In this document: piece by piece, positions 1 to 42,258 of the stretch
Numbering within the stretch: position 1 is the stretch's first letter
Layout: the number at the start of each line of letters is the position of its first letter
From: an uncultured delta proteobacterium
GTDB taxonomy: Bacteria; Myxococcota_A; UBA9160; SZUA-336
DNA: 64,000 bases
NCBI GenBank assembly: GCA_963704165.1
Contig: CAVPHD010000004.1
Span: 192,001-256,000, forward strand
Direction of reading: 5' to 3'
Position numbers and translations under genes: made by a program
The notes under the pieces: model-generated
What the model was told of the DNA's origin: nothing
The model's input: the letters and a program-made list of their open reading frames with translations, nothing else
The model's database searches: none

Positions 1-684
1 GCGATACGTGTCGTCGTACTGCTCGATCGGCGCGTAGGCGCCGCCGAGCGGCGCCGCGTACTGGCTCGTCTCGATCACGTACTCGGTGTTCGGGGTCACG
101 AACGTCGCGCCGTGATCCGACTGGATCAGCCCGCTTCGCACGATCTGAATGGTGGTGAAGTCCTCGAGATCGATCACCGCGACGCGAGCGTTCGCCTTGT
201 CGTTGACGAAGAGGAACTCGCCGTCGTAGTCGCCCTTCGTCTCGGAGAGCGCGGGGTGGTGGACGTCGGCCCAGCGCAGCGGAATGCCCTCCGCGTCGCC
301 CTGCGCGAGGATCGCCTCGCTCTGATCGCCGTAGCCGTATCCCTGCCAGGGCTCGGGCGTGAACACGGCGATCACCTTCAGGATCCGCATGCTGGGCAGG
401 CCGATCACGATCACCTGACCCGAGTGTCCGCCCGACGCGAAGATGTAGTACGGGTCGTGGACACCGGTGGGTGTGTAGGTCTTGAGCGCGGCGATCACGT
501 CCTTCTCCGCGAGCCCGCGCTGCTTCATCAAGGCGCTCGTCGATGCTCCGTTCTGGCCGCTCGAGGGCTGGAGTTCCTGGCCCCCCTGGGGTCCGCACGC
601 CGTCGTGCCGACCCCGAGCACGGAGGCGAGCACCAGCGCGGCCAAGCGCGTCCGGTTCTTCGGTGTCGATTCCCACATCTCCAT
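1..684 (-). CDS. nosZ: Nitrous-oxide reductase, clade II (Sec/lipoprotein type), N-terminal part; runs off the window
   Basis: Manual translation (not in ORF track): ...VGTTACG...AALKTYTPTGVHDPYYIFASGGHSGQVIVIGLPSMRILKVIAVFTPEPWQGYG...WADVHHPALSETKGDYDGEFLFVNDKANARVAVIDL. No Tat motif. Alternative ATGs at 696 and 678. Confidence 0.93.
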   Translation of the reverse strand, partial: MEMWESTPKNRTRLAALVLASVLGVGTTACGPQGGQELQPSSGQNGASTSALMKQRGLAEKDVIAALKTYTPTGVHDPYYIFASGGHSGQVIVIGLPSMRILKVIAVFTPEPWQGYGYGDQSEAILAQGDAEGIPLRWADVHHPALSETKGDYDGEFLFVNDKANARVAVIDLEDFTTIQIVRSGLIQSDHGATFVTPNTEYVIETSQYAAPLGGAYAPIEQYDDTYR

Positions 685-13879: not shown

Positions 13880-13916
13880 CGCCGCGTTTGCACGCGGGAG
13901 TACGGTGTCACTGTCA

Positions 13917-14441
13917 ATGAAGACGAACTCCGAAATGAGCGAGATCCCGGCCGTTGTCGTGGCCCAGGTGAACGGCCGCGTGGTGAACCAGAACGCGACC
14001 GCCCGTCGCCTGATGGGAGACGGCGAAGGCCGCGACTGCTGGCACGTCGTCGGAGGTCTGAAGGACGCGGAAGGCTTGCCGTGTCGCACGGGCTGCGTCC
14101 GTGAGCTGCTCGCGAGCGGAATGGACCGCGCCCGGCACACGCGCATCTCGCTCGCCGGGCGACAGCACTCCCTGACCTGCGTGCCGATCGAGGGCGCGGT
14201 CGTCTGTTCGCTGAGCTCGCCCTCGGCGCAGCAGCCGGAGACGTGGGAGCTGCTCACCGCGCGCGAGCGCGACGTGCTTCGGCTTCTCGCGCTCGGAAAG
14301 ACCGACCGCGCGATCGCGGCCGACCTCGGGCTCAGCAGCTCGACGGTGCGAACCCACGTCGAGCACATGCGCTCCAAGCTCGGCGTCGGCACGCGGGCCG
14401 CGTTGGTCGCCCGCGGCTTCGACCTGGGTTTCCTGTGCTGA
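13917..14441 (+). CDS. LuxR-family HTH regulator with PAS-like Cys-containing N-terminus
   Basis: LTARERDVLRLLALGKTDRAIAADLGLSSSTVRTH; N-terminal NQNATARRLMG..CWH..CRTGC. Confidence 0.85.
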   Translation: MKTNSEMSEIPAVVVAQVNGRVVNQNATARRLMGDGEGRDCWHVVGGLKDAEGLPCRTGCVRELLASGMDRARHTRISLAGRQHSLTCVPIEGAVVCSLSSPSAQQPETWELLTARERDVLRLLALGKTDRAIAADLGLSSSTVRTHVEHMRSKLGVGTRAALVARGFDLGFLC

Positions 14442-14470: not shown

Positions 14471-14488
14471 ATCGGTCAAATGACCGAT
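14471..14488. promoter_or_regulatory. 18-bp palindrome upstream of the nod-like gene
   Basis: ATCGGTCA-AA-TGACCGAT, 120 bp upstream of ATG 14608. Confidence 0.5.
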
Positions 14489-14607: not shown

Positions 14608-16931
14608 ATGAGCAATGAGAAGAGGAACCTAGCCCAAGTACTGCACGACAAGAAAACGTGGTGGGTCCACTTTCTGATCGTCGCTGCAATCTGTCTGAGC
14701 GGGCTCGTCTATCTCGGCACGGAGACCTACTACGGGGGCTCCGCCGCTCGAGAGCTACGTCTCGACCTCGGGCGAGGTGGTGATCCCGCTCGAGCAGATC
14801 AAGCAGGGTCAGGAGGTCTTCCACCTCCGCGGTCTGATGCTCTACGGCTCCTTCTGGGGTGACGGTGCCGAGCGCGGGCCGGACTTCACGGCCGACGCCC
14901 TGCACCGGACCGCCGTCGCGATGCGGGAGTACTACGAGCGGCACACGGAAGGGGCGCTGACGCAGTACGACAAGGACGCGATCAGGGCCCGGGTGATCCG
15001 CGAGATCAAGACGAACACCTGGAACGAGGGCGCGAAGAACATCGTGGTCAACGATGCTCAGATCCACGCGTTCCAGGAGCTGAAGACGCACTACACCAAG
15101 ATGTTCAACGACCCCGAGTACGCGGAGGCGTTCGAGCCGACGGGATTCATCAGCGACCAGGCCCAGCTCGACGCCCTGTCGGCGTTCTTCTTCTGGGGTG
15201 GTTGGGTTTCCGGCGCGAAGCGGCCGGGTCAGGAGTACAGCTACACGCACAACTGGCCGTACGATCCGGAGGCCGGCAATCTCGCGACGAACGAGACCCT
15301 GATCTGGAGCGTGGTCTCCATCTTCGGACTCTTCCTCGGCGTGCTCGTCATCCTGTACGTCTACGGCCAGTTCAAGGAGGAGGGCGATCCGTTCACGGGT
15401 AACGGGACGTCGCTCACCACGAACGACCTCGAGGTGGGCCGCATCCGCGCTACGCAGAGGGCCTGCTACAAGTTCTTCGTCCTCTCGATCATCCTGTTCG
15501 GGCTCCAGGTTCTCGCGGGAATGCTCGCGGCCACCGACTTCGTTCGCCCGTTCGGGATCTCGCTCGCGAGCATCATCCCGTTCACCGTTCTGCGCAGCTA
15601 CCACACGCTGTTCCAGATCTACTGGTTCTTCATGGCATGGGTCGGCTACACGGTCTTCTTCCTGCCGCGAATCTCGCGAGTTCCGGATGGCCAGCTCTTC
15701 CTGATCAACCTGCTCTTCGCGATCTGCATCGTGACGGGCGTCGGCGCGCTGGTCGGCATCTACGCCGGACAGACCGGAATGATCACCGGTCAGACCGCCT
15801 ACTGGTTCGGAAGCCAGGGCTGGGAGTTCATGGAGCTCGGCCGCGCCTTCCAGTACACGCTGCTCAGCTCGTTCGCGCTGTGGATCTTCATCATCTACCG
15901 CGCGGTCAAGCCGTGGCTGACGACGAAGAACGTCTGGTCGGTTCCTTCGTGGCTGCTCTACGGCAGCGGCATCATGGTCGGCTTCCTGTTCTTCGGGCTG
16001 ATGATCTCGCCCGATCAGAACTGGGCCGTCGCCGACTACTGGCGCTGGATGGTCGTGCACATGTGGGTGGAGGTGACCTTCGAGGTCTTCACCACCGTGA
16101 TCGTCGGCTACATGCTCGTACAGATGGGCCTGATCTCGCGCATGATGTGCGAGCGGGTCATCTTCCTGGCCGTCATGATGTTCCTCGTCACCGCGACGCT
16201 GGGCATCTCGCACAACTTCTACTGGATCGCGAAGCCGACCGGCATCATCGCGGTGGGCGGAGTCTTCTCCACCCTCCAGGTGCTGCCGCTGCTGCTCCTG
16301 ACGCTCGATGCGTGGCGCATGAAGTCCGAGGCGGTCCGCGCGCGGACGCACCTCCTCGCGGGACGGCAGGTCTACGTGATGGAAGGTGTCTGGCTGTACG
16401 TCCTCGCGGTCAACTTCTGGAACATCTTCGGAGCCGGCGTCTTCGGCTCGCTCATCAACCTTCCGATCGTCAACTACTACGAGCACGCGACCTACCTCAC
16501 CGGCAACCACGCACACGCGGCGATGTTCGGTGTGAAGGGCAACATCGCGATCGGCGGAATGCTGTTCTGCGCTCAGCACCTGCTCCCGAACAAGGTCTGG
16601 AACGAGAAGCTGATCCGGACGTCCTTCTGGTCGATGCAGATCGGTCTGCTTGATGATGATGGGTCTGGATCTGTTCCCGGTCGGCGTCTACCAGCTCATG
16701 CTCGTCTTCCGGGAAGGCCTGTGGTTCGCACGGACCCAGGAGGTTCTGACCGGGCCGGTGTGGGCGACCCTGACCTACATGCGCTCGATCGGTGGAACGC
16801 TGTTCATCGTGGGCGGCGTGCTGCCCCTGATCTGGCTGTTCCTGTCCAGGGCCGGCCAGCTTCGGCAGGAGACCCCGGAGCTCGAGCAAGAGGGCGAGTG
16901 GACCGTCTACGAGAAGGACTGGGCAGCGTGA
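14608..16931 (+). CDS. nod: qNor-family protein with NO dismutase (Nod) signature; frameshifts near 14731 and 16650
   Basis: YGSFWGDGAERGPDFTADALH, YTHNWPYDP, RSYH, HMWVEVTFEVF, GISHNFYW, FSTLQVLP, NHAHAAMFG, RSIGG. Confidence 0.85.
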
Positions 16932-17082: not shown

Positions 17083-17460
17083 GTGGCCAACATGATCACC
17101 GAGGAATGCGTCAATTGCGGTGCATGTGAGCGCATGTGCCCGGGCGGCGGGATCTCCCAAGGGGAAGAGACGTTCGTCATCGATCCCAGCCGCTGCACCG
17201 AGTGTGTCGGCTTCCATCACACGCAGCAGTGCGCGCGGGTCTGCCCGGTCGATTGCTGCGTGATCGATCCGAACAACATCGAGACCGAGGCCGTGCTCTT
17301 CGAGCGCGCACAGAAGCTGCACGACATCACGGGCCGCGAAGTCGTGCTCGGGCCGGAGACTTCGCACTACCAAGCCCACAAGCGCACGCTCGGCACGACG
17401 CTGAAGAAGCTGAGCCGAGGCCTGACCGACGTCCTTCAGGGGCCTCGACGGCGTTCCTGA
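17083..17460 (+). CDS. YfhL-like 2x[4Fe-4S] ferredoxin
   Basis: CVNCGACERMCP and CTECVGFHHTQQCARVCPVDC. Confidence 0.88.
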   Translation: MANMITEECVNCGACERMCPGGGISQGEETFVIDPSRCTECVGFHHTQQCARVCPVDCCVIDPNNIETEAVLFERAQKLHDITGREVVLGPETSHYQAHKRTLGTTLKKLSRGLTDVLQGPRRRS

Positions 17461-17607: not shown

Positions 17608-17895
17608 ATGTGGAAGTACTACGCGCTGATGTTCGTCGCCGTTGCGCTGATTCTCGCGTACACGTACGTTGCGGACCCCTGCCACAAGATGCTTCGAACC
17701 GACTTCGCGAAGGCGAATCCCAACTTCGTGATCCTGGATTCGGAGGCCGAGTCGGGTGCCCCGGAGAGTGTTCACTGCCGGATCTCGTATCAGAAGCCCG
17801 GTGACGACGGGACGTACGAAGACGTCTGGGTCTACCACCGGGGGAGACGGGTTGGGAGTTCTCCCGGGTCAGCGAGTCGGGAGCAAAGAGGCTGA
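17608..17895 (+). CDS. Small membrane-anchored hypothetical protein
   Basis: MWKYYALMFVAVALILAYTYV TM segment; 3' end possibly frameshifted. Confidence 0.55.
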   Translation: MWKYYALMFVAVALILAYTYVADPCHKMLRTDFAKANPNFVILDSEAESGAPESVHCRISYQKPGDDGTYEDVWVYHRGRRVGSSPGSASREQRG

Positions 17896-17944: not shown

Positions 17945-18961
17945 ATGTGTCCCCGTTTCAACTCGGCGAGCCTTTTGCGCATGGTCCGCGAAGTGGCCCC
18001 GGGAGTTCTCGGCTTTCAGATGGGCGTGGAGCTGCGATTGTGGCTTCAGCGTCGGCGGGTCGGTGGAGAGCGCGTGCTTCCGACGGCGCTCTATCTCGAG
18101 ACGTCGAGCTACTGCGCCGGCGCCTGCGCCAATTGCTATGTGCCGGCCGTCGATCGTCGCCAACACCTCCAACTCGATGTCGGCATGCTCGATCGTCTGC
18201 TCGTCGCTGCAGAGAAGCTGCCGATCGCGTACGTCTGCATCGTCGGTGGCGAGCCGCTGGACCCATCGATCGTCGATCTCAACTTGCGCCTCGTGCGCGA
18301 GCACCCGCGCACGCGGTTCCTGATCTGCACGAGCGGTGAGCCGGAGATCGGGCCGGAGCTCGGACGCGAGCTCGGTGCGCTCCGCAACCTCTCCCTTCTG
18401 ATCTCGTTCGAAGGCCTTCCCGAGACGCATCAGAGCATCCGCCCCCGCGGCTCCTTCGACAACGCGAGCGCCGCCTTGGATGCCTACCGTCGCTACAGCG
18501 GCAGTCTGTGCGGAGCGAGCGTCACGCTCCGTCCGGACAACTGGCAAGAGGCCACGGGTCCGGAGTTCTTCCGGCAGCTCACGAGCGCGGGTGCTCAGTA
18601 CTTCGTCTACGCTCCGTGTGAGACCCGAACCGGGAACCAGATGCTGAGCCCGGAGCTGCACGCCAGCGCTCTCGATCGACTCGCCGAGCTCTCCGCATCG
18701 TCGAGTGCGCTGGTCTTCTCGTACCCCTTCGGACAGATCCAGGGACGACGAATCGCGCCCGCTCGACGCTTTCGTTCCCTCACCGTGGACTACCTGGGCA
18801 ACGTCTACATCGCGCGCCGTGGTGCGTGCTTCGGCAACGTCTACGACACCGACCTCGCTACGCTGCTCTCTCGGCCCGCGCTCCAGACCGCGTACAGTCA
18901 GGCCGCCGCTGGCCCCGCCCACTGGCGTCCGACGTCGGTGCCGACGGGCGCTTGGACCTGA
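17945..18961 (+). CDS. Radical SAM protein of unknown function
   Basis: CAGACANCY, GGEP, ISFEG; start uncertain. Confidence 0.8.
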   Translation: MCPRFNSASLLRMVREVAPGVLGFQMGVELRLWLQRRRVGGERVLPTALYLETSSYCAGACANCYVPAVDRRQHLQLDVGMLDRLLVAAEKLPIAYVCIVGGEPLDPSIVDLNLRLVREHPRTRFLICTSGEPEIGPELGRELGALRNLSLLISFEGLPETHQSIRPRGSFDNASAALDAYRRYSGSLCGASVTLRPDNWQEATGPEFFRQLTSAGAQYFVYAPCETRTGNQMLSPELHASALDRLAELSASSSALVFSYPFGQIQGRRIAPARRFRSLTVDYLGNVYIARRGACFGNVYDTDLATLLSRPALQTAYSQAAAGPAHWRPTSVPTGAWT

Positions 18962-18979: not shown

Positions 18980-19597
18980 TCACAGGTAGAGGCAGACGTA
19001 GAGCACGGGCCAGATGCCGACGGCGAAATACCACGAGATGCACGCGGCCGAGAAGGCGCTGCTACTCAGCGCGGCCCTCGCGGGGACGTTCTCATCGCGG
19101 AAGGGCTTGAGGCGCAGCCAGATGACGCTCAGGAAGCTCAGCGTCCCCACCACGTGCAAGGCGTGCATTCCGACGATGATGCAGAAGAACACGCCGTGAT
19201 CGCTCGAGGTCAGCGTCAGGCCGTCGTCGATCAAGTTGCGCCACACGATGCCCTGGAAGAACAGGAAGAAGCTGCCCAGAACGATCGCGGCCAGGAGGAG
19301 TGGACCGATTCGCGCGTCTCGATTGTCCCAGGTGCGCGCTGCCCGGAACACGAGGGCGCCGCTTGCCAGCAGTGCGGCGGTGTTGATCGCGGTCTCGCCC
19401 AGCGGGAACCAAGGCTGATTCGGGGGCGGCCAGACGGTGCCATCTACCGATCGCGTCAGCATGAACGCGGTCACCATTCCGAGGAACATCATCGCCTCGG
19501 AGACCACGATGACGATCATCGCGACCATGCCGCGATCGATCGCGAATCGGCGCGCGCGTCGATGCGGCTGAATCGAGACCACGTTCTGTCCGCTCAT
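18980..19597 (-). CDS. Heme-copper oxidase subunit III / NorE-like membrane protein
   Basis: SEAMMF, NTAALLASG, GMHALHV, WYFAVGIW. Confidence 0.78.
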   Translation of the reverse strand: MSGQNVVSIQPHRRARRFAIDRGMVAMIVIVVSEAMMFLGMVTAFMLTRSVDGTVWPPPNQPWFPLGETAINTAALLASGALVFRAARTWDNRDARIGPLLLAAIVLGSFFLFFQGIVWRNLIDDGLTLTSSDHGVFFCIIVGMHALHVVGTLSFLSVIWLRLKPFRDENVPARAALSSSAFSAACISWYFAVGIWPVLYVCLYL

Positions 19598-19719
19598 GCG
19601 CTGGACTCCCGCACGGGGCCGCTCGTCGGTGGGCACCACCGTCACGGCTTTCGAACGAATCGCATTCTATCAGTCGGCGACGCCGTCCGCCCAGGTCCGG
19701 CGGCAGAGGCTTCGGAAGC

Positions 19720-20719: not shown

Positions 20720-20894
20720 GCCGCGCTACTGAGGCGGAACGCCCTCTTTTGCCGACCGATCTCGACAGAAGCGCCACAACGATAGCGAGTGGATAGTGGC
20801 AATTTGCACCATAATTCGTGGTTCCTGCCCATCCGATCCGGCTCCAGACGGCTCGCAGCGAATCTGGCGCGTGCGGCGACGCCGTCCTCGGAGC

Positions 20895-20910
20895 GGGTAT
20901 CCGACTTGCA
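20895..20910 (+). promoter_or_regulatory. Possible sigma54 promoter of nirS
   Basis: GGGTATC-CGAC-TTGCA with GG-N10-GC spacing, 24 nt before ATG and RBS GGGAGG. Confidence 0.45.
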
Positions 20911-20934
20911 ATTGGCCGCCGCGGGAGGTCCGAC

Positions 20935-22617
20935 ATGCGCCATCTCGCAACGAATCGCACCCACTCTTTCGAACGAGCCCTCGCCCTGACGGCGCGAGTG
21001 CTCGGGTGCGTGCTCGCGATCGCGATCCTGGCGGGGTCCGCGTTTGCGGCCGAGCCCGCCAAGACCCCGGCGGTGGTCAAGCAGCCGGTGCCGAAGCTCA
21101 CCCCTGCCGAGCTCGCGGAGGGCACGCAGATCTACTTCGATCGCTGTGCGGGCTGCCATGGAACGCTTCGCAAGGGCGCGACCGGACCGAAGATCGACGA
21201 CGAGGCGATGCTCGAGAAGACTCTTTCGAAGCTCGAGGAAGTCATTCACGACGGCACCGACGCCGGCATGCCGGGCTGGGGCCGCACCGGCGAGATGACC
21301 GCGGCGCAGACCAAGCTGATGGCGAAGTTCCTGCAGAACCCGCCTCCGATTCCGCCCGAGATGAGCCTCGCGGACATGAAGAAGAGCCACAAAGTCTACG
21401 TGCCCGTCGACAAGCGGCCGACGAAGCCGCAGCACAAGTACGACGTGGACGAGCTCTTCGGCGTGATTCTGCGCGACGCGGGCAAGGGCGCGATCATCGA
21501 CGGCAAGAGCAAGGAGCTCATGACCGTCGTCGACACCGGCTTCGCGGTCCACATCTTCCGCTCGTCGGGGACCGGCCGCTACTTCTACACGATCGGCCGC
21601 GACGGCAAGGTGAGCCTGATCGACCTGTTCGCAGCCAAGCCCACCGTGGTCGCCGAGGTTCGAACTTGTTCCGACGCGCGCAGCGTCGAGGTTTCGAAGT
21701 ACAAGGGTCCGAAGGGCGACTTCGTCGACAAGCTCGCGATCGTCGGCTGCTACTGGCCGCCGCAGCTCGTGATCCTCGACGGGCAGACGCTCGAGCCCAA
21801 GAAGGTCATCTCCACCCGATCGATGACCTACGACACCAACGAGTACCACCCCGAGCCGCGCGTTGCGACGATCATCGCTTCGCACTTCGACACGGAGTGG
21901 GTCATCGCGATCAAGGAGACGGGTCTCGTCTGGCTGCTCGACTACTCGGACCTCGTCAACGTCAAGATGCACCAGATCGAGACCGAGCGGTTCCTCCACG
22001 ACGGCGGATGGGACGCGACGAAGCGCTACCTGCTGATCGCCGCCAACATGCGCGACCAGATGGTCGTCGTGGATACGAAGGAGAAGAAGTTCGTCACCAA
22101 GTTCGAGACCGGCGTGAAGCCCCATCCCGGGCGTGGCGCGAACTGGGACGATCCGGAGTTCGGTCCGGTGAGCGCGACCACGCACCTCGGCGAGGGGAAG
22201 ATCACGGTCTACGGATCCGACCCCGCGGGTCATCCGCAGCACGCGTGGAAGATCGTGCGTGAGCAGGAGACGGCGGGTCCGGGTCTCTTCCTCAAGACCC
22301 ACCCGAAGAGCGAGAACGTCTGGACCGACGCGACCTTCGCGAAGGACGGCAACTCGAATCAGACGATCTGTGTCTTCAAGAAGAAGAGCTTCGACGACGG
22401 CGCCCAGTGTTTCGAGGCGACCAAGCACGGGAAGATCGTGCACTTCGAGTACAACAAGGCCGGCGACGAGGTCTGGGCGTCCGTCTGGGACAGGAAGGGC
22501 GTGCTGATCGTCTACGACGACAAGACGCTCGAGGAGAAGGCTCGGATCGAGGCGGACTGGCTGGTGACTCCCACCGGGAAGTGGAACGTCTACAACACCG
22601 TTCACGACGTCTACTGA
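20935..22617 (+). CDS. nirS: Cytochrome cd1 nitrite reductase
   Basis: CAGCHGTLRKGATG, GRDG, YWPP, YHPEPRVA, FLHDGG, PHPGRGAN, TPTGKWNV. Confidence 0.96.
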   Translation: MRHLATNRTHSFERALALTARVLGCVLAIAILAGSAFAAEPAKTPAVVKQPVPKLTPAELAEGTQIYFDRCAGCHGTLRKGATGPKIDDEAMLEKTLSKLEEVIHDGTDAGMPGWGRTGEMTAAQTKLMAKFLQNPPPIPPEMSLADMKKSHKVYVPVDKRPTKPQHKYDVDELFGVILRDAGKGAIIDGKSKELMTVVDTGFAVHIFRSSGTGRYFYTIGRDGKVSLIDLFAAKPTVVAEVRTCSDARSVEVSKYKGPKGDFVDKLAIVGCYWPPQLVILDGQTLEPKKVISTRSMTYDTNEYHPEPRVATIIASHFDTEWVIAIKETGLVWLLDYSDLVNVKMHQIETERFLHDGGWDATKRYLLIAANMRDQMVVVDTKEKKFVTKFETGVKPHPGRGANWDDPEFGPVSATTHLGEGKITVYGSDPAGHPQHAWKIVREQETAGPGLFLKTHPKSENVWTDATFAKDGNSNQTICVFKKKSFDDGAQCFEATKHGKIVHFEYNKAGDEVWASVWDRKGVLIVYDDKTLEEKARIEADWLVTPTGKWNVYNTVHDVY

Positions 22618-22632
22618 TCGGAGGAAGGATTC

Positions 22633-23242
22633 ATGCAGCGTCTCCTGATCGCGGTCGTATCCGCGTGCGTCTTGGGTCTCGTATCGGGACCGGCGCACGC
22701 GGACGGAAAGAAGCCCCACCAGTTCGCCGGGGCCGTGAAGTGCCGGTCCTGCCACGAGAAGGACGAGATCGGAAACCAGTACGGGAAGTGGCTGGACTCG
22801 AAGCACGCAAAAGCTTGGAGCACGCTCGCGTCCGACAAGGCGAAGGAGTGGGGCAAGAAGCGGGGGATCGACGATCCCCAGGCTTCCGACAAGTGCGTCA
22901 AGTGCCACGTTGCCGCGCACGGCGAGCCCAAGCCGCGTCTCAGCATGAAGTACTCCCCCAAGGAGGGCGTGACCTGCGAGGCGTGCCACGGCCCGGGAAG
23001 CGACTACCGGAAGAAGAAGATCATGATGAACCAGGACGAGGCGGTGAAGAGGGGCCTCGATCCTGCAGACCGAGAAGGTCTGTCTGACCTGCCACAACGA
23101 CGAGAGCCCGGCTTGGGATCCCGCACGCTACAAGCTGGCCGGCGGCAAGACGGCGGGGTTCGACTACGAGCAGGCGAAGAAGGCGATCGCTCATCCCGTG
23201 CCCGAGGGGTACGACCCCTCGAAGGACAGCGGGGACGAGTAG
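22633..23242 (+). CDS. Periplasmic tetraheme cytochrome c (c554-like); frameshift near 23060
   Basis: Signal peptide; CRSCH, CVKCH, CEACHGPGS, CLTCH. Confidence 0.82.
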
Positions 23243-23267
23243 AGAATGCTGGACGAGGAGGGGCACG

Positions 23268-23889
23268 GTGAAGAGCTCGGGTAAGCGCGTTCTAGCCGCG
23301 ACCTGGACGGTCCTCGGCGGAGCTCTCGTCACCGTCCTCATGCTCTTCACGCTCCAGTGCTCCCACGACAAGGACGGGAGTCGCAGCGACTACCCGAGTC
23401 GCACTACTTCCACCCGAGCCCGCGCCCGTGCTCCTGGCCAGCCCCGAGCCGAGCGACGACTACTTTCCCTGCAGCGACTGCCACGACGAGACCATGAAGA
23501 CCAATCGAGCGCGCCGCGATGCTCGAGGACGATCACGACGATCTCGAGGCTCGCTCACGGAGATCTCTGGTGCCTGCAGTGCCACGTCGGCCGAGGACCG
23601 CGACTTGCTGCACCTCTCCGACGACACGGCCGTCGAGTTCGGGGAATCCTGGAAGCTCTGCACGCAGTGCCACGGAAAGAAACTCGCGGATTGGCAGGCG
23701 GGAGTGCACGGAAAGCGCACCGGTCACTGGTGGGGGCCGAAGGAGTACCGGACCTGCGTCTCCTGCCACGATCCTCACTCGCCGCGCATTCAAGGGAATC
23801 GAGCCGCGACCGCGGCCCCGGCGACCGGAAGAGATCCGCCGCGCGGCCGCCGTCGCCGAGGAAGCGCGTCCGCAGGAGGTCTCCGATGA
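23268..23889 (+). CDS. Membrane-anchored tetraheme cytochrome c (frameshifted)
   Basis: N-terminal TM; CSDCH, CLQCH, CTQCH, CVSCHDPH across frames. Confidence 0.75.
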
Positions 23890-24820
23890 AATCCGATGAT
23901 CGCGACGCGCCGCTCGACGCGAAGGGAGCCTCCCGGCGCAAGTTCCTGCGCACCGCAGTCGCGGGAGCGGCGGCGGTCACGGGGGTTGGCGCGCTCACCG
24001 GCTGCGAGTTCGACCTCGAGAGCGTGCTGCAGAGGCCATTTCCGCGAGATGTCGCGCGCGGATCTCGACCGGGTCCTCGAGCGGCTCCAGAAGAAGTACT
24101 CCACGCGTTACGGCGAAGGACGTGAAGGTCACCGCGACCGGGCCGATCGACGGGGTCGTCTTCGGCTACGGCCTCGACATCTCGCGCTGCGTCGGCTGTC
24201 GCAAGTGCGTGTACGCCTGCGTGGACGAGAACAACCAGTCGCGGGATCCGCAGATCCAATGGATCCGCGTCCTCGAGTTCGAGCGCGACCAGGTGATCCG
24301 CGGGATCAACCTCGAGGACGGCAACCCCTACTACGAGCACGAGCAGGTTCCCGCGGAGGACAAGATGTACCTCCCCGTCGCCTGCCAGCACTGCGACGAC
24401 TCTCCGTGCACGCAGGTCTGCCCGACGGGGGCGACGTGGATGGAGCCCGACGGAATCGTCGTGATCGACTACGACTGGTGCATCGGCTGCCGCTACTGCA
24501 TGGCGGCTTGCCCGTACGGCGCGCGCAAGTTCAACTGGGGCGAGCCGAATCTCCCCGCCGACGAGGTGAATCCGGACATGCACCTCCTCGGCAATCGCCC
24601 CCGGGCGCGGGGCGTCGTCGAGAAGTGCAGCTTCTGCATCCAGCGCGTGCGCGACGGGCGCTACCCCGCATGCCTAGAGGCGTGTCCGGTGGGCGCGCGG
24701 AAGTTCGGAAATCTCCTCGACCCGAACAGCGAGATCCGGCAGCTGCTCGCGACCAAGCGCACGTTCGTGCTCAAAGCCGAGCTCGAGACCCATCCCAAGT
24801 TCTTCTACTTCTGGGGCTGA
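23886..24820 (+). CDS. Tat-exported NrfC/PsrB-type 4x[4Fe-4S] protein (frameshifted at 5' end)
   Basis: SRRKFLR; CVGCRKCVYAC, CQHCDDSPCTQVCP, CIGCRYCMAACP, KCSFC, PACLEACP. Confidence 0.88.
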
Positions 24821-24824
24821 TTCG

Positions 24825-26049
24825 ATGAACTCGGTTCTCCACTTCTGGCGCTTCATCGACGGCAGCGCGCGCGTGGTGGCGCGCGGCAATGCCGCGGCTA
24901 CTACGCGTGGCTCGGTCTCCTCGTGGCGGCTGATCGTGATCGGCGTCCTCGCATTCGGAAACCAGACTCAGAACGGCCTGATCGTCTCGAACATGCGCGA
25001 TCAGGTCTCCTGGGGCTTCTACATCGGGAACTTCGCCTTCCTCGTCGGTGTGGCCGCGGCGGCGGTCATCCTGGTGATTCCCGCCTACGTGTACAGGTGG
25101 GGACCGATCAAGGAGGTGGTGATCCTCGGCGAGATCCTCGCGGTCTCCGCGATCATCATGTGCATGCTCTTCGTCGCGATCGACGTCGGACGCCCCGACC
25201 GGTTCTGGCACCTGTTTCCTGGTGCCGGGACGCCGCACTTCCCCAGCTCGCTGCTGGTCTGGGACATCCTCGTCCTGAACGTCTACTTCGTGATCAACTT
25301 GTTCGTCGTCACCTACCTCGTCTTCAAGAGCTACATGGGCCAGCAGTACAACGTCGTCGTTCATCATGCCGGTGATCTTCCTCTCGATCCCGTTGGCGGT
25401 CGAGCATTCACACCGTGACCGCGTTCCTGTTCATGGGGCTGAAGTCGCGGCCGTTCTGGAACAGCGCGATCCTCGCGCCGCGCTTCCTCGCGAGCGCGTT
25501 CTGCTCCGGCCCGGCGCTGATGGTCCTGATCTTCTCGATGCTTCGGTCGGTTCGCCCGATTCCGATCTCCGGACACGGCGCTGCGAAAGATCGGCGAGCT
25601 GCTTGCCTACGCGATGGCGGCCAACCTGTTCTTCCTCGGCTGCGAGGTCTTCCGCGAGTTCTACTCGGCCAGCGCTCACTCGGTCCACGCCGAGTTCCAG
25701 TGGTTCGGGATCGAGGAGCGCGGAATCGCCGGCTACACGTGGTTCGCGCTCGCCTGCAACTCCATCGCGTTCGTGATCTTCCTGGTCCCCGCGCTGCGCG
25801 ACCGCATCCGGACCTCTGAGCGTGGGCTGTGCGCTCGCGGTGATGGGGGTCTTCATCGAGAAGGGCCTGGGACTTCTGCTCCCCGGGCTCACACCCGACG
25901 CGCTCGGCGAGGTCTACCACTACACCCCGAGCGTGAACGAGGTGCTCGTCGGCCTCGGGATCTGGGCCATCGGGGCGCTCTGCTTCACGCTGATGACGAA
26001 GGTCTCCATCGCCATCACGCTCGGCGAGTTCCGCCACCAGAAGACCTGA
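24825..26049 (+). CDS. NrfD/PsrC-family membrane quinol-interacting subunit (frameshifted)
   Basis: VSWGFYIGNF, DVGRPDRFWH, FPSSLLVWD, RPFWNSAILAPRF, YTPSVNE. Confidence 0.85.
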
Positions 26050-26104: not shown

Positions 26105-26536
26105 CTACTTCGGTCCCGGGAGCGTGCGCACGAAGGCGACCATTCCCCAGATCTTCTCGTCGCTCCACGACTTGTCGGAGCCGGGGCCGAAGGCGGGCAT
26201 CTGCGAGCGCGGTGCGCCGCCCTTGAGGATCTGCCAGAAGAGCTGTCCGTCGGTTCGAGTTCCCATGTACGCGGAATCGGTGAGATCGACCGGTGGAACG
26301 GCTTGCCCCGTGGCCTCGTCGCCTCCGCCGTCGCCATTCGCACCGTGACAGCGCGCGCAGTTTGCCTTGAACTGTTTTGCGAAATAGGCCTGCTTCTTCG
26401 CGTCGAGCACGACCGGGTTCGTCGTCGTCGCGATCTCGGGCGGTGTATCGTCGCGCGCCGTCGATGACGATGCGCAGGCGAGAACCGCCACGAAGATCGG
26501 GATCGACAGAAGGCCGGTGATACGAGTCGGGTGCAT
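26105..26536 (-). CDS. Monoheme cytochrome c lipoprotein
   Basis: VLAC lipobox, CARCHG, MPAF. Confidence 0.82.
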   Translation of the reverse strand: MHPTRITGLLSIPIFVAVLACASSSTARDDTPPEIATTTNPVVLDAKKQAYFAKQFKANCARCHGANGDGGGDEATGQAVPPVDLTDSAYMGTRTDGQLFWQILKGGAPRSQMPAFGPGSDKSWSDEKIWGMVAFVRTLPGPK

Positions 26537-26559
26537 GGGGGCTCCTTCGACGGCGCCTC

Positions 26560-28020
26560 TCAGGGTTCGAGGCGCGTCTTGTTCCAGGCGTTGTACTTCC
26601 CGACCGGCATCGCGAAGGGCAGGCGCGCGACCTCCGCGAGGCTCCGCGAGTCGTAGGCGACGACGGCTCCTTCCGAGTGCCAGACGCTCACGAGTGCACG
26701 GTCTCCCTCCTTGGTGAACTCCGTGTGCATGGCGATCTTGCCGGGCGCCGGCACCAGAGCCTTCGCTCGAAGCTCGAGCGTGTCCTTGCGGACGAGCTGG
26801 ATCGCCTCGGTATTCGTGTCCACCCAGAGAAAAGGCGTCCCCGGGTGCGTGCGCACGAAGTATCCCTCTCCGCGCAGTGCGATCTCCTTCACGACCTCGA
26901 AGCGATCGAGCCGCACGATCGAGAGCCGCGGCGCGCCCGCGTGATTGAACGCGGCGTACGGCACCCCGTCGCGCTCGAAGAAGCACGAGGAGAAGAGGTG
27001 CGGCAATCCCTCCGTCGTCAGGGAACCGGCCTCGGCGCCCCGTTCGAGATCCCACAGGATCAACCGGGTTCCCCCGCGCGAGCTCGCGACGAGCTTCCGC
27101 GTACCGGGAACGAACGCGAAGTCCTCGAAAGGCTCCGGTAGATCGATCTGGCGAATCGAGAGATCGTCGGTGGACAGGAACAGCATTCGCGGTGAGTCGC
27201 GCAGCGTCAGCACGAAGCGGTCCTCGCCCGGCAGCGCGTAGACCGCGCTCGGTTTGCCGTCGAGGGCAAGCGAGGCGAGCGGGCGAAGATCGCCGTCGAG
27301 CACGACGAGAGATGCCGGGAGTTGATTCGCCACGACGACGCGGTCTCCGGCCGCGGAGATCGCGAGATTTCGCGTGTTGGCCGCGACCTTGATCCGTGCG
27401 ACCGGACGCCCGCGCGCGAGGTCGTAGAGAACGACCGTCCCGTCGCGGGTGGCGGCGACGACCTTCGTGAAGGCCGAGTCGAACTTGGGCCCGCCGTGGA
27501 TCTTTCCGGCGTCGAAGCGGTCGAGCTCGCGAAGCGAGTCACCGTCGAGAACGGCGATCCGCCCCGCGTCGCGCTCGACGACGAGGATGATGTTCTCGCG
27601 GTGGACCTCGGATGAAATCCTGTCCGCGTTGGCGGAAAACTCGGTCCGGCTTCGCGCGGCATCCTCGGTTCCCCAGGTGACCGACTCGACCGGTGTTCGC
27701 ATGAACGCGACCAGGCGCGCGGTCGTCGATTCGTCGACGACCGCGCGGAACGGCGGCATCTGGGTCGCGGGAAGTCCGTCGCGGATCACGGCGGCGAGCG
27801 TCGCGTCGTCCCTGCGTGCGAGTAGGTCCGGAAGCAGAGGCGGCGCGTAGCCGCCGTAACGGCGCTCTCCGTGACACGACGCGCAATGCTCCTGGTAGAC
27901 CGTGGCGGCCTCGGGCGTGTCCGCGGCGTGCGCGGGCGCGACGGGGATGAGCGTGAGGGACGACGAGATCCATCCGAGTAGGAGCAGCGCATTCACGTGG
28001 GGCATTGTAGCGAGGTGCAT
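26560..28020 (-). CDS. nirN: NirN, dihydro-heme d1 dehydrogenase
   Basis: CASCHG plus d1-type propeller: HGGPKF, RDG, PHL, FVRTHP, HTEFT, MPVGKYN. Confidence 0.85.
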   Translation of the reverse strand: MHLATMPHVNALLLLGWISSSLTLIPVAPAHAADTPEAATVYQEHCASCHGERRYGGYAPPLLPDLLARRDDATLAAVIRDGLPATQMPPFRAVVDESTTARLVAFMRTPVESVTWGTEDAARSRTEFSANADRISSEVHRENIILVVERDAGRIAVLDGDSLRELDRFDAGKIHGGPKFDSAFTKVVAATRDGTVVLYDLARGRPVARIKVAANTRNLAISAAGDRVVVANQLPASLVVLDGDLRPLASLALDGKPSAVYALPGEDRFVLTLRDSPRMLFLSTDDLSIRQIDLPEPFEDFAFVPGTRKLVASSRGGTRLILWDLERGAEAGSLTTEGLPHLFSSCFFERDGVPYAAFNHAGAPRLSIVRLDRFEVVKEIALRGEGYFVRTHPGTPFLWVDTNTEAIQLVRKDTLELRAKALVPAPGKIAMHTEFTKEGDRALVSVWHSEGAVVAYDSRSLAEVARLPFAMPVGKYNAWNKTRLEP

Positions 28021-28165
28021 CCGGTCAGCGATCCGCTCTCGCGCCGCCGTCGTACCCACGGGCTCGCTCGGGCGAGGCGGTCGTCGCTCCTGCGCGGAGG
28101 CGAGCAGGGATCGGAAATCCGTGCCTCCGAAATGACACACTCTCGTTCCGGTTGGAGGCGACGAG

Positions 28166-29650
28166 ATGTCCGAGCCGAGCAAGACCCGTCCGACGCGACC
28201 CCGACGGCTCGCGGCCGTCGACCGCTGGGACATCGAGACCGACGTCGCGGTGATCGGCTTCGGTGGTGCCGGAGCGTGCGCCGCCATCGAGGCGCACGAT
28301 GCGGGAGCGGCGACGATCCTCTTCGAGCTCGCCAGTGCCGCGGGTGGATCGACGGCGCTGTCGAGCGCGGAGATCTACATGGGCGGGAACGGCGGCACGC
28401 GAGTCCAGCGCGCCTGCGGATACCAGGACTCCACGGAGGACATGTACCGCTACCTGATGCTCGCCGGCGGCGAGCAGGTCGACGAGGCCAAGGTGCGGAC
28501 GTACTGCGACGGCAGCGTCGATCACTTCGACTGGCTGGTCGCCTGTGGGGTTCCCTACAAGGACAGCGAGTACAGAGAGCGCGCGATCATGGCGCTGAAC
28601 GACGACTGCCTGCTCTACACGGGAAACGAAAAGGCGTGGCCCTTCAGCGCAGTCGCCGCGCCCTGTCCTCGCGGGCACAACCTCCAGGTCGAGGGTGACA
28701 ACGGCGGCCCTCTGCTGATGAAGATCCTCGGCGAGAACGTCGTCGAGCGCGGCATTCGGGTCGAGTACGACGCACGCGCCCTGACCCTGATCGCCGACGA
28801 AGACAATCAGGTGCACGGCGTCGTCGTCCGCATCGACCAGCGGGAGCTCAACGTCCGGGCTCGTCGGGGCGTGGTGCTCTGCGCCGGCGGCTTCGTGATG
28901 AACCCGTCGATGCTGAAGAAGTACGCTCCAATGCTGCTGCGAGGAAGCATGCCGATCGGAAATCCGGGCGATACCGGCTCCGGCATCCTGATGGGCATGG
29001 GCGTCGGGGCCGCGACGATCAACATGCACGAGGGCTTCATCAGCATCCCCTTCTACCCACCCGCCGCGACCACGTTCGGCATCTTGATCAACGCGCGGGG
29101 GCAACGTTTCATCAACGAGGATTGCTACCACGGACGGGTCGGCTGGCATCTGCTCCACCAGATCGGGGATCGTTTCTACTTCGTTCTCAGCGCCGAAGGT
29201 TTCAAGCGACCTTCGTTCCTGAACGCCGACATCGCGGGAACCGGTGAGACGATCGCCGAGCTGGCCGAAGAGCTCGGTCTCGATGCGGAGGAGCTCGGTC
29301 ACACCGTCGAGTTCTACAACCGTCATGCGGAGCAGGGCGTCGATCCGCTGTTTCACAAACACCGGGACTGGTTGAAGCCGATCGAGCCCCCGTACGTCGC
29401 GCTCGATTGCACACCCGGACGCGGCGTGATCATCCCGTACTTCACGCTGGGCGGGCTCGACACCCTGCCGACCGGAGAGGCCCTGACGGGCGAACGCGAG
29501 CCGATCCCGGGCCTCTACGCAGCGGGGCGCACGACCGCGGGACTTCCCCGGACCGGCTCCGGCTACAGCAGCGGAATGTCCGTAGGCGACGTCACGTTCT
29601 TCGGAAGAATGGCGGGCCGGGCGGCGGGACAGGCCCCACGTCGCGGCTGA
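28166..29650 (+). CDS. FAD-binding oxidoreductase (3-ketosteroid dehydrogenase/fumarate reductase-like)
   Basis: GFGGAG, GGSTALS, LCAGGF, DTGSG, GQRFINED, TLGGL, GLYAAG. Confidence 0.85.
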   Translation: MSEPSKTRPTRPRRLAAVDRWDIETDVAVIGFGGAGACAAIEAHDAGAATILFELASAAGGSTALSSAEIYMGGNGGTRVQRACGYQDSTEDMYRYLMLAGGEQVDEAKVRTYCDGSVDHFDWLVACGVPYKDSEYRERAIMALNDDCLLYTGNEKAWPFSAVAAPCPRGHNLQVEGDNGGPLLMKILGENVVERGIRVEYDARALTLIADEDNQVHGVVVRIDQRELNVRARRGVVLCAGGFVMNPSMLKKYAPMLLRGSMPIGNPGDTGSGILMGMGVGAATINMHEGFISIPFYPPAATTFGILINARGQRFINEDCYHGRVGWHLLHQIGDRFYFVLSAEGFKRPSFLNADIAGTGETIAELAEELGLDAEELGHTVEFYNRHAEQGVDPLFHKHRDWLKPIEPPYVALDCTPGRGVIIPYFTLGGLDTLPTGEALTGEREPIPGLYAAGRTTAGLPRTGSGYSSGMSVGDVTFFGRMAGRAAGQAPRRG

Positions 29651-29654
29651 GGCC

Positions 29655-30866
29655 GTGGGCTATGCTGCCACCATGCTCCCCGTCAGCGATTTGCTCGAGG
29701 TCGCGCGCCGGTCCGTTTCCGGAACCGACGTCGGTGCGCGCGCGCCCGCGCGGTTCGCGCCCCCCGGCGATGTGCCGTTCGTCGTGGTCTGGAACATCGG
29801 CATCCACTGCAACATGAGCTGTCCGCACTGCTATGCGGCTGCGACCTCGCGGCCCTCCCCGCACGACCTCGATACGAACGAAGGTCTCCGACTGCTCGAG
29901 CAGATGGCCGAGGCAGGCGTTCGCGTGCTGATCGCGAGCGGTGGCGAGCCGCTGCTGCGGCCGGACGTCTTCACGCTCCTCGCTCACGCTCGCGATGTCG
30001 GCCTCTCGCCGCAGTTGTCCACCAACGGTGTGCTGATCGACGAGGAGATCGCGGGCCGTCTCGCCGCCTGCGGCGTCGGGTACGTGGGCGTCAGCCTCGA
30101 CGGACTGCGCGACTGGAACGACGAGTACCGCGGGCTCGCCGGGGGTTTCGATCGCGCGGTCGCCGGCCTCGGGTTCGCGCGGGCCGCGGGCATGCGGACG
30201 GGCGTGCGCATGACCCTCACGCGGCGCAACGTCGATCAGCTCGACGGAGTCGCCTCGATCGCGGTCGAGTGCGGTGCCGACCGCTTCTACGTCTCGCACC
30301 TGGTCGATTCGGGTCGAGGCGCGAAGCTCGTGGGCGACGATCTCGATCGGGGCGAGGGTCGCGAGATGCTCGGGATCCTCTTCGAAACCGCCGAGCGTTG
30401 GCTCGATCGTGGCTGCGCGACGCGCGTCGTGACCGGATCGAACGATTCCGATGGTCCCTTCCTGCTGCGCTGGATCGAAGCGCGTTACGGCGCGGAGGCC
30501 GCCGGTCCGGTCGAGAAGCTCCTGCTCGAGCGCGGCGGCAACTCCGCCGGAGAGCGCATCTTGTCCGTCGATCATCGCGGGCGCGTCCATCCCGATCAGT
30601 TCTGGCGCTCGGCGGTGCTCGGCGAAGTGCGAACGACTCCGTTCGCGGAGATCCTCAAGCATCCGCTGCGCGAGCAGCTTCGCAATCGACTCGCGCACCT
30701 CGAGGGCCGTTGCGGTGCGTGCGGCTATCGCGCGCTCTGCCGCGGCTCGCACCGCGAGCGCGCGATCGCGCGTCACGGCGAGCTCTGGTCGCCGGATCCA
30801 GCGTGCGTCCTCGAGGATCACGAGATCGGCGTAGAGGAAGTTTCGGTCGGAGAGGTGCGCGCATGA
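29655..30866 (+). CDS. nirJ: Heme d1 biosynthesis radical SAM protein
   Basis: VWN..CNMSCPHCY, SGGEPL, FYVSHL, GGNSAG, VHPDQFW, DPAC. Confidence 0.88.
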   Translation: MGYAATMLPVSDLLEVARRSVSGTDVGARAPARFAPPGDVPFVVVWNIGIHCNMSCPHCYAAATSRPSPHDLDTNEGLRLLEQMAEAGVRVLIASGGEPLLRPDVFTLLAHARDVGLSPQLSTNGVLIDEEIAGRLAACGVGYVGVSLDGLRDWNDEYRGLAGGFDRAVAGLGFARAAGMRTGVRMTLTRRNVDQLDGVASIAVECGADRFYVSHLVDSGRGAKLVGDDLDRGEGREMLGILFETAERWLDRGCATRVVTGSNDSDGPFLLRWIEARYGAEAAGPVEKLLLERGGNSAGERILSVDHRGRVHPDQFWRSAVLGEVRTTPFAEILKHPLREQLRNRLAHLEGRCGACGYRALCRGSHRERAIARHGELWSPDPACVLEDHEIGVEEVSVGEVRA

Positions 30867-32041: not shown

Positions 32042-32043
32042 CG

Positions 32044-33084: not shown

Positions 33085-34224
33085 TCACTTCGACTCGATC
33101 ACCCCCGGTGCCTTGATCTGCTCCAAGAGATCGTTGTCCCACTCGCCCTCGACCACGACGTGCGCCGCGGCTCCCTTCAGGACCGCGTCGATCAGGTTGT
33201 GGTTCAGGTACACGTACAGACCCGGCTGCTCGAACGTGTAGAGAGCCGCTCCAGCGGTTCCGCCCGGAATGAACCAGGTCTCCTGGTTCGTCTGGGGCGG
33301 ATCGTTGAAGGAGCCCGTCGCCCACACGAAATCCCCGTGACCGCCGATCAGGTGCGGTCGAGTGTCTCGATTGGCCTGCGAGTGGAGGAACAGGACGGTC
33401 TCTCCGACGTTGGCCTTGAGTGCATGCTCGCCGGTCAGCGCGCCCACGGCGCCATTGAACACGACATGGCTGGGCTCGTTGGTGAGCATCACTTCGAGCG
33501 TGTCGGGCATGGCGGTCAAGACCGAGTCGAAGTTCTTGTACTTCCCATCGCTACCCTTGGGAATGTAGAGATCCTGCTCGCCGATGTAGTACGCGCGGTC
33601 GTAGTGTAGCGGGTTCCCCTTCGGATCCTTCAGGCCGTCGCGTGGAAGAACCATGATCGCGCCGTTCATTCCCGTCACGACGTGGTAGGGGATCATCGCG
33701 CCGCCGGGCGCACAGTGGTAGACGAAGACGCCGGGCTTGGTCGCCTTGAAGCGAATCGTCGCTTCCTGGCCGGGAGCGATCAGCGAGAGACCCGCGCCCC
33801 CGAGCGCGCCCGTGGCGGCGTGGAAGTCGATGTTGTGACTCATCACGTTGCCAGGGAAACCATCCCAGTGCTCCGGATTTGCGACGCCGGGCGCTTTTCG
33901 GGGTCTGTTGACCAGTGTGAGCTCCACGTAGTCGTTCTGGTGCACGACGATCATCGGCCCCGGAACGGTTCCCTGAAAGGTCATCGCATTGATCGTCGTT
34001 CCGTCCGGATCGATGACGAGCCTGCGTTCCTCGACCTCGAGTCGGACCTCGACGATCCTCGGGCCACCGTCGGCCTTCTGCGAGTGCTTCGGGAGCAACG
34101 GCGGTGCCACGAGGACCTGCTTCACGCGCGGAAGCCCCTTGGCCTTCGAAGGCTTGTCCGCCAGCACCGTGGCTGCGGGGAAGCAGATGGCAACGGCCAG
34201 GAACGCGCAGGCGACTCGTTTCAT
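33085..34224 (-). CDS. nirK: Copper-containing nitrite reductase
   Basis: [35 protein letters not shown]. Confidence 0.96.
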
Positions 34225-40491: not shown

Positions 40492-40509
40492 AACGAGGAG
40501 GGCATCCCG

Positions 40510-41025
40510 ATGGCATCGCCGAAGAAGCTCGCGCACATCGCGCTGGCGACGAACGACGTGACCCGAATGCGAGACTGGTACTGCCGCGTGCTCGAGGCGC
40601 GCGTGGTCTTCGAGAACGAAATGCTCTGCTTCACGACCTACGACGACGAACACCACCGGGTGGTCTTCGCCAAGCCGCCGGGATTCGAGGCGAAGCCCGG
40701 CACGGCGCAGAACCTGCACCACTTCTCGTTCACGTACGCGACGCTGGGCGAGCTGCTCGCGACGTACGAGCGACTGCGAGACGACGACATCCGACCCTGG
40801 TGGACGATCCACCACGGCCCGACGCTGTCGATGTACTACCGCGACCCCGACGGGAACAACGTCGAGCTGCAGATCGACACCATGACGATGGATCAGGCCG
40901 GCGAGTTCCTCCGCAGCGGCGCGTTCGCGAAGAACCCGATCGGAATTCCGTTCGACCCCGAGGAGCTCGTCTCGCGTCATCGAGCGGGTGCGAGCGAGAC
41001 GGAGCTCTTGCGGTATGGCAGCTGA
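40510..41025 (+). CDS. VOC/glyoxalase-family protein (extradiol dioxygenase-like)
   Basis: LAHIAL, DDEHHR, HHGPTLSMYYRDPDGNNVE. Confidence 0.85.
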   Translation: MASPKKLAHIALATNDVTRMRDWYCRVLEARVVFENEMLCFTTYDDEHHRVVFAKPPGFEAKPGTAQNLHHFSFTYATLGELLATYERLRDDDIRPWWTIHHGPTLSMYYRDPDGNNVELQIDTMTMDQAGEFLRSGAFAKNPIGIPFDPEELVSRHRAGASETELLRYGS

Positions 41026-42213: not shown

Positions 42214-42258
42214 CCTGCGCGCGCGGAGCCGGTAGATTGGCGGAGGGAGGACCGAGCC

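What the first reader, a model, noticed from the sequence alone, without database searches (positions are those of the whole stretch)
14608..16931. Putative NO dismutase (Nod) rather than a normal qNor
Seen: a qNor-family protein that keeps its heme ligands (RSYH, NHAH) and HMWVE, but differs at four sites. GISHN (16211-16216) replaces the paired FeB histidines, and STLQV (Gln at 16277) replaces the conserved Glu. AATDFV (~15533) and RSIGG (~16791) replace the quinol-site His and Asp. Established: this combination marks the proposed NO dismutases of Methylomirabilis (NC10) and gammaproteobacterium HdN1 (2NO to N2 + O2); the activity itself is not biochemically proven. Inference: a Nod in a heterotrophic host with no methane-oxidation genes in this window.
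Basis: partly seen in the sequence, partly recalled or inferred. Interest (0 to 1): 0.93.

Follow-up and report, generated by a model that had tools for sequence, protein, structure and literature searches.

The report
Putative NO dismutase with di-iron companions
This gene is a real member of the already catalogued "nitric oxide dismutase" family, in an uncultured Myxococcota denitrifier; it likely turns some nitric oxide into oxygen (a reaction never shown for a purified member), and in related genomes it travels with one kind of di-iron enzyme that is predicted to consume oxygen.

Summary
Observation confirmed. The gene (14608-16931, two single-base frameshifts, probably assembly errors) carries His560Asn, Glu581Gln, His328Thr, Glu332Arg and Asp746Gly, keeps the other five histidines, is 63% identical to Methylomirabilis DAMO_2434 and sits inside the Nod clade (100/100). 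It is a Nod, not a qNor. That is not new: a 2024 survey lists NOD in 16 phyla, including 12 species of the probable host class (Myxococcota_A UBA9160), and this scan found Nod 22 times before on other DNA. The chemistry is unproven. The host also encodes NirS, NirK, NosZ and an eNOR-type reductase, so Nod is an addition to a full nitrite-to-N2 route, as in HdN1. New here: among 191 genomes of the class, an AurF-like di-iron subfamily occurs in 15 of 17 nod genomes against 6 of 174 others (control paralog 8/17 against 70/174); an unnamed membrane protein occurs in 14/17 against 3/174; and a conserved palindrome precedes nod. These give a candidate oxygen sink and testable partners, but the link is absent from HdN1 and does not prove O2 formation.

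The parts
14608..16931 (+). nod gene, 773 codons when read through two single-base insertions (pieces 14608-14736, 14735-16651, 16650-16931)
   Evidence: Pfam PF22085 + PF00115
15533..15547 (+). Quinol-site substitutions His328Thr (15533) and Glu332Arg (15545)
   Evidence: same pattern described in PMC10286720
16211..16216 (+). His559 kept, His560 replaced by Asn (non-heme metal ligand)
16277..16279 (+). Glu581 replaced by Gln
16794..16796 (+). Gly at the quinol-site Asp position
14471..14488 (.). 8-2-8 palindrome 120 bases before the start; predicted operator of the adjacent LuxR-type regulator
   Evidence: best site in the genome; similar sites before nod in 11 of 41 held-out loci, 0 of 47 in-gene controls
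13905..14441 (+). LuxR/GerE-type regulator directly upstream
   Evidence: cluster present in 17 of 81 nod loci; LuxR neighbours already noted by Elbon et al.
17083..17460 (+). YfhL-family 2[4Fe-4S] ferredoxin directly downstream
   Evidence: above cut-off; near nod in 8 of the 11 nearest named loci by tblastn
17608..17895 (+). Unnamed ~100-residue protein with a predicted N-terminal membrane anchor and two conserved Cys; C-terminus diverges from homologs, probably a further frameshift
   Evidence: 14 of 17 nod genomes, 3 of 174 others; also beside gammaproteobacterial nod
18980..19645 (-). Extra oxidase subunit III (COX3)-like gene that accompanies nod in this class
2..684 (-). 5' part of clade II (Sec-type) nosZ; the rest and nosD/F/Y lie just outside the window (context)
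20818..22617 (+). nirS (cytochrome cd1); heme d1 genes follow at about 26500-33000 (context, NO source)
33088..34206 (-). nirK copper nitrite reductase (context, NO source)
   Evidence: TIGR02376 above cut-off

Best explanation
The gene encodes a Nod-family membrane enzyme (qNor scaffold, quinol-site residues lost, one metal ligand changed to Asn) that likely draws off part of the NO made by the host's NirS and NirK and would split it to N2 and trace O2 for oxygen-dependent enzymes, while most NO likely goes through the separate eNOR-type reductase and NosZ. Shown: the residues, the tree position, the gene content, the co-occurrence counts. Inferred: two hemes and a non-heme metal are bound; no quinol is used; the LuxR protein switches nod on through the palindrome. 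Untested: the products, and that the AurF-like di-iron enzymes and flavin halogenase-like pair are the O2 users. Family membership about 0.97; the confidence given is for the whole mechanism.
For: Defining substitutions of PMC3413370 section 7 all present. Nested with DAMO_2434 (CBE69496.1; 62.7% identity) and HdN1 Nod at 100/100. The host has another NO reductase candidate on contig C7: B-family-like, Gln at the cross-link Tyr, the eNOR diagnostic in PMC8756737, with a CuA-type subunit II, SCO and heme O synthase beside it. 12 of 17 nod genomes of the class hold another NOR-type gene, so Nod is usually an addition, as in HdN1, which has both. 16 of 17 have nirS or nirK. An AurF-like subfamily with a full di-iron ligand set (E96, E126, H129, E175, E205, H208) is in 15 of 17 nod genomes against 6 of 174, lies 0.3-8.8 kb from nod in 7, and follows nod within seven genera; a control paralog does not (8/17 against 70/174). 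The genome has an A-type oxidase, heme A synthase and 14 P450-family matches.
Against: No Nod has been purified (PMC13386854; PMC11549561). O2 was not detected in HdN1. Foraminifera with a Nod-like Nor make N2O (PMC6783311). nosZ is in 15 of 16 nitrite-reductase-positive nod genomes against 16 of 37 without nod, and 5 of 17 nod genomes show no other NOR, 4 of them with nosZ, which fits N2O as product. The AurF-like subfamily was not found in HdN1, an alpha-type host or an Acidobacteria host (0 matches in 3 of 5, weak in 1, 46-47% in 1). The operator was found before only 1 of 25 AurF-type loci. Co-transfer on one island could explain part of the co-occurrence, and kin are not independent. No reads or expression data for this genome were found.
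Confidence: 0.45

Rival explanations
1. Nod is a non-canonical NO reductase or detoxifier that makes N2O, taking electrons from something other than quinol (for example the neighbouring ferredoxin or a subunit III-like partner); NosZ finishes the job.
For: nosZ enrichment (15/17 against 62/174); 5 of 17 nod genomes without another NOR match; N2O from foraminifera; ODZ correlation with N2O cited by Elbon et al.; many altered active sites still reduce NO (PMC11214002). eNOR needs heme A, whose synthesis needs O2, so Nod could be the anoxic stand-in.
Against: Quinol residues lost in 80 of 80 Nod-clade rows (none keeps His328 or Asp746); M. oxyfera makes N2 without nosZ and with little N2O; among nitrite-reductase-positive genomes nod does not replace other NORs (11/16 against 28/37, p 0.74).
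Confidence: 0.35
2. Nod yields neither free O2 nor respiratory N2O in bulk but an activated N-O species, or a mixed dismutation to N2O plus O2, used by or protecting the di-iron enzymes.
For: Alternative uses of N-O species are discussed for HdN1; NO dismutation to N2O plus O2 is reported for N. maritimus, which lacks nod; would fit both nosZ and di-iron co-occurrence.
Against: No direct evidence for this enzyme family.
Confidence: 0.13
3. The copy in this genome is a pseudogene broken by two real frameshifts.
For: Two frame breaks; no run holding this genome was found to check them (best share 0.08).
Against: 92.5% identity to an intact homolog over 773 residues with no internal stop; 3 of 10 neighbouring genes compared with a same-genus genome are frame-broken, nosZ three times; contigs of relatives lack the base at 16651.
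Confidence: 0.05
4. It is an ordinary quinol-dependent NO reductase.
For: Same Pfam architecture; best solved-structure match is qNor 3AYF; most database names say nitric oxide reductase.
Against: 32-35% identity of the intact homolog to qNor references against 62-63% to named Nods; separate clade; five qNor-invariant residues changed.
Confidence: 0.02

Closest known systems
Putative NO dismutase DAMO_2434 (CBE69496.1) of Ca. Methylomirabilis oxyfera
   Same: 62.7% identity over 789 columns; identical HMWVEVTFEV, GISHN and NHAHAAMFGVKGNI stretches; same clade.
   Different: Single copy; host is not a methanotroph as far as tested, and has nosZ and an eNOR-type gene.
Nod of gammaproteobacterium HdN1 (FP929140) and gamma-type ODZ Nod (NP964, PBRC01000062)
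   Same: 62-66% identity to the intact homolog; same diagnostic residues; LuxR neighbour; Nod beside a complete N2O route. NP964 shares the palindrome and the small membrane protein.
   Different: HdN1 has a canonical qNor, no match to the AurF-like subfamily and no scoring operator.
NODs of Myxococcota_A class UBA9160 listed in Ruff et al. 2024 (PMC11549561, Table S1)
   Same: 12 species of that class are listed with NOD; named records with the same project prefixes (L004, L009, L016) branch with the window protein.
   Different: Only listed, not analysed; I found no description of their gene context in the searches run.
Quinol-dependent NO reductase of Geobacillus stearothermophilus (3AYF/3AYG)
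   Same: Scaffold, heme ligands, H508, E512, H559.
   Different: H328, E332, D746, H560, E581, Y660 changed.

Membership tests
Nod (putative NO dismutase) | His560 replaced by Asn, other five histidines kept | tested here: met
   definition
Nod (putative NO dismutase) | Catalytic Glu581 replaced by Gln | tested here: met
Nod (putative NO dismutase) | Quinol-site residues (His328, Glu332, Asp746) lost | tested here: met
   T, R, G
Nod (putative NO dismutase) | Branches with M. oxyfera and HdN1 Nod, apart from qNor | tested here: met
   IQ-TREE 29 rows, 100/100; FastTree 90 rows
Nod (putative NO dismutase) | Full-length qNor-like chain with heme-less cytochrome c domain | tested here: met
   773 residues when read through; PF22085 + PF00115; no structure model was obtained
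Nod (putative NO dismutase) | Score against the published NOD HMM | not testable with these tools
   HMM not held in the libraries; NCBIfam gave no family
Nod (putative NO dismutase) | Converts 2 NO to N2 + O2 | not testable with these tools
   needs biochemistry; not shown for any member
qNor | Histidine sextet, Glu581 and quinol site intact | tested here: not met
   9 of 9 references keep them, the window protein does not
eNOR (second gene, contig C7, outside the window) | B-family-like subunit I with Gln at the cross-link Tyr, plus cupredoxin subunit II | tested here: met
   activity not tested

The most novel reading that the evidence does not exclude
In this Myxococcota class Nod is the core of an oxygen-supply module: a LuxR operator, a ferredoxin, an unnamed membrane-anchored accessory protein and a subunit III-like protein serve a Nod whose O2 feeds a dedicated AurF-like di-iron oxygenase subfamily and a flavin halogenase-like pair, and possibly the heme A synthesis that eNOR needs. 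This would be a genomic O2 sink for a Nod outside methane and alkane oxidisers.
Probability: 0.25. Interest if true: 0.8.

Novelty: new member of a known kind. Interest (0 to 1): 0.45.

Why it matters
Whether Nod makes N2 + O2 or N2O is an open question of 15 years that affects N2O budgets and the idea of dark oxygen production. One more Nod gene does not move it. The companions might: a 2026 study found no clear oxygen-consuming system next to nod in its non-methanotroph genomes (PMC13386854), whereas here a predicted di-iron oxygenase subfamily tracks nod closely. The small protein, the subunit III-like protein and the operator are also concrete candidates to include when trying to express an enzyme that nobody has yet purified.

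Tried and rejected
Reads: no public run held this genome (shares 0.05-0.08); the four runs laid are relatives' contigs, so they say nothing on habitat, expression or this genome's own bases. Gap-filling idea (Nod as the only NO reductase between Nir and NosZ): dropped for this genome once the eNOR-type gene was found. BVMO and P450 genes directly upstream as conserved O2 sinks: matched in only 1 and 2 of 80 named loci, rejected. Shared regulon of nod with nirS, nirK, nosZ or eNOR: no second site in the window, L148 or L166; no FNR/DNR-type box in the window with the recalled consensus and one mismatch. Shared operator with the halogenase-like pair: present here (23.5 bits; 4 of 60 column-permuted matrices reach that score somewhere in the genome) and in one close ortholog (21.5), weak or absent in the other 28 of 30 loci, so only a lead. 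Complex prediction of Nod with the small protein was not available, and no structure model was returned (job unfinished), so binding and folds are untested. Atlas search of the small protein gave only unnamed clusters under 0.9. The first IQ-TREE run on 90 rows did not finish. No clear NarG or NapA among 7 molybdopterin matches, 4 of them scanned; a DMSO-reductase type II operon on C9 is unassigned.

Full report
1. Observation. The stretch 14608-16931 (+) holds one gene in three frames. Against intact homologs the pieces join without loss at about 14735 and 16650; read through, it is 773 residues and 92.5% identical to P0001. Counting on the printed alignment to Geobacillus qNor 3AYF, His355, His508, Glu512, Glu516, His559, His651 and His653 are kept, while His328, Glu332, Gly513, His560, Glu581 and Tyr660 become Thr, Arg, Val, Asn, Gln and Lys. 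The Gly at 16794 aligns with the quinol-site Asp of other qNors. In a 90-row alignment, 80 of 80 Nod-clade rows have Asn560, Gln581 and Lys660 and 9 of 9 qNor references have His and Glu. The breaks look like assembly errors: 3 of 10 neighbouring genes compared with a same-genus genome are frame-broken. Reads of this genome were not found.

2. Family. PMC3413370 (passages and section 7 read) defines Nod by His to Asn, Glu to Gln and loss of the quinol site; PMC11549561 (passages, section 6 and table rows read) says all NODs have the Asn; PMC10286720 (passages) reports His328Thr with Glu332Arg as the commonest pattern in its sequences. M. oxyfera DAMO_2434 was retrieved (CBE69496.1) and is 62.7% identical. 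In IQ-TREE (29 rows chosen from the larger set, LG+G4) the window protein lies in a 100/100 clade with DAMO_2434 and HdN1 Nod, apart from 8 qNor references; FastTree on 90 rows, after dropping 16 duplicate or truncated rows, agrees.

3. Host and prior knowledge. The three named hits among the 120 best homologs of the window's HrcA are all Myxococcota, as are most of the nearest named nod loci. Several of those records carry project prefixes that are genus names of Myxococcota_A class UBA9160 in Table S1 of PMC11549561, which lists 12 species of that class with NOD among 16 phyla; the class assignment of the host is therefore probable, not shown. Non-methanotrophic nod hosts are common (66 of 1,362 genomes in PMC13386854, passages; Elbon et al., parts 1-3 of 5 read, supplements closed; PMC11828985 and PMC10359470, passages). 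This scan holds 22 earlier findings with these words, one in a Myxococcota-like genome.

4. Genomic context. The window is a denitrification island: clade II nosZ with nosD/F/Y, nod, nirS with heme d1 genes, nirK, hemerythrin and a Crp-type regulator. The genome (84% complete) has three heme-copper oxidase genes: an A-type oxidase, nod, and a B-family-like protein with Gln where the ba3 oxidase has its cross-link Tyr. That is the eNOR diagnostic (PMC8756737, passages); an eNOR has been shown to reduce NO and to need heme A (PMC11214002, passages). So the route from nitrite to N2 is complete without Nod. No pmoA-family match (control silent) and only two weak PF02332 matches.

5. Distribution in the class. 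Of 191 genomes at least 80% complete, 17 have a match of 68% or more to P0001 (two are contig-end fragments; one 42% Nod-like row was not counted; motifs checked in 16 loci). Of these 17, 16 have nirS or nirK (37 of 174 others), 15 nosZ (62 of 174), 11 the eNOR-type gene (31 of 174; Gln checked in the 10 loci fetched) and 12 some other NOR-type gene. This fits NO as substrate but does not choose between products: nosZ enrichment favours N2O, coexistence with other NORs favours a separate job. Kin are not independent, so the p-values overstate.

6. Companions. Clustering of ORFs over 80 named loci plus the window gave a LuxR regulator (17 loci), an unnamed membrane-anchored protein (16), a YfhL ferredoxin (11) and a subunit III-like gene (8). 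The small protein is in 14 of 17 nod genomes and 3 of 174 others. A palindrome at 14471-14488 recurs: a matrix trained on 7 sites scores 13 bits or more before nod in 11 of 41 held-out loci (starts could be placed in 47 of 80) and in 0 of 47 in-gene controls; among held-out loci it goes with the LuxR neighbour, 9 of 12 against 2 of 29. The second-best site in the genome lies on contig C11 between two divergent flavin halogenase-like genes followed by two AurF-like genes, with a desaturase beside them. The orthologous pair sits next to nod with the same site in L004, but most orthologs lack the site. The second AurF-like protein keeps a full di-iron ligand set. Its subfamily (E at most 1e-90, one threshold, at most 11 candidates scored per genome) is in 15 of 17 nod genomes and 6 of 174 others, 14 of 16 against 3 of 37 among nitrite-reductase-positive genomes, within 9 kb of nod in 7, and in seven genera with mixed nod status it falls in the nod-bearing members, with one extra. 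A control AurF-like paralog shows no association. Against a general rule: no match in HdN1 and two other Nod hosts, and the operator precedes only 1 of 25 AurF-type loci. The named loci and the class genomes overlap in part, so these counts are not separate evidence. That AurF-like di-iron proteins and flavin halogenases use O2 is established family knowledge (recalled); substrates here are unknown. Searches and the findings look-up showed no description of this link; subscription papers and closed supplements may hold one.

7. Mechanism. Most likely (0.45) Nod is a side branch: NO from NirS/NirK is split without external electrons to N2 and trace O2 for oxygen-dependent enzymes, while eNOR and NosZ carry respiration, the arrangement proposed for HdN1 (PMC3151549, passages, where O2 was not detected). 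The main rival (0.35) is N2O formation with another electron donor, supported by foraminifera (PMC6783311, passages) and the nosZ enrichment.

8. Verdict. A correct and genuine new member of a known, still unproven family, in a lineage where it is already catalogued. Interest 0.45: ordinary as a Nod, lifted by companion genes that make the open question more testable.

Noticed in passing
G000:C7:174232-176488 (L166:6232-8488): eNOR-type operon: CuA-type subunit II, subunit I with Gln at the cross-link Tyr, SCO, a cytochrome b/Fe-S fusion and heme O synthase fused to DUF420; homologs in 42 of 191 class genomes.
   Followed up: partly
G000:C9:125817-129896 and G000:C5:300885-305113: Two rpoB-like genes, about 40-57% identical; the C9 copy is intact, the C5 copy lies in several frames. 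Duplication or contamination not resolved.
   Followed up: no
window 22633-26046: Multiheme cytochromes, a 4Fe-4S protein and an NrfD-like membrane protein directly after nirS: a probable quinol-to-cytochrome c module.
   Followed up: no
G000:C11:224522-230496 (L193:3522-9496): Desaturase, divergent flavin halogenase-like pair and two AurF-like di-iron genes, with a nod-type palindrome between the pair; product unknown.
   Followed up: partly
L187 (G052:C64:25001-45000): A genome with the operator, LuxR, ferredoxin, small protein, subunit III-like, AurF-type and nirK genes but no nod match in the stretch or in the genome search: possible loss or assembly gap.
   Followed up: partly
window 35738-36973 (-) and 17957-18895 (+): An unnamed 412-residue protein and a radical SAM protein that recur near nod in some relatives.
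   Followed up: no
window 39331-43922: HsaA-like flavin monooxygenases and glyoxalase/extradiol dioxygenase-family genes, suggesting aerobic steroid or aromatic degradation.
   Followed up: no
G000:C9:57883-62421 (L195): DMSO-reductase type II operon (alpha, beta, heme b gamma), frame-broken; could be the nitrate, chlorate or selenate reductase of this host.
   Followed up: partly
Atlas cluster 2: A cluster of 98 AurF-like proteins close to the nod-tracking subfamily has Methylomirabilota as commonest phylum among 15 members with a record; not checked whether these are nod-bearing genomes.
   Followed up: no
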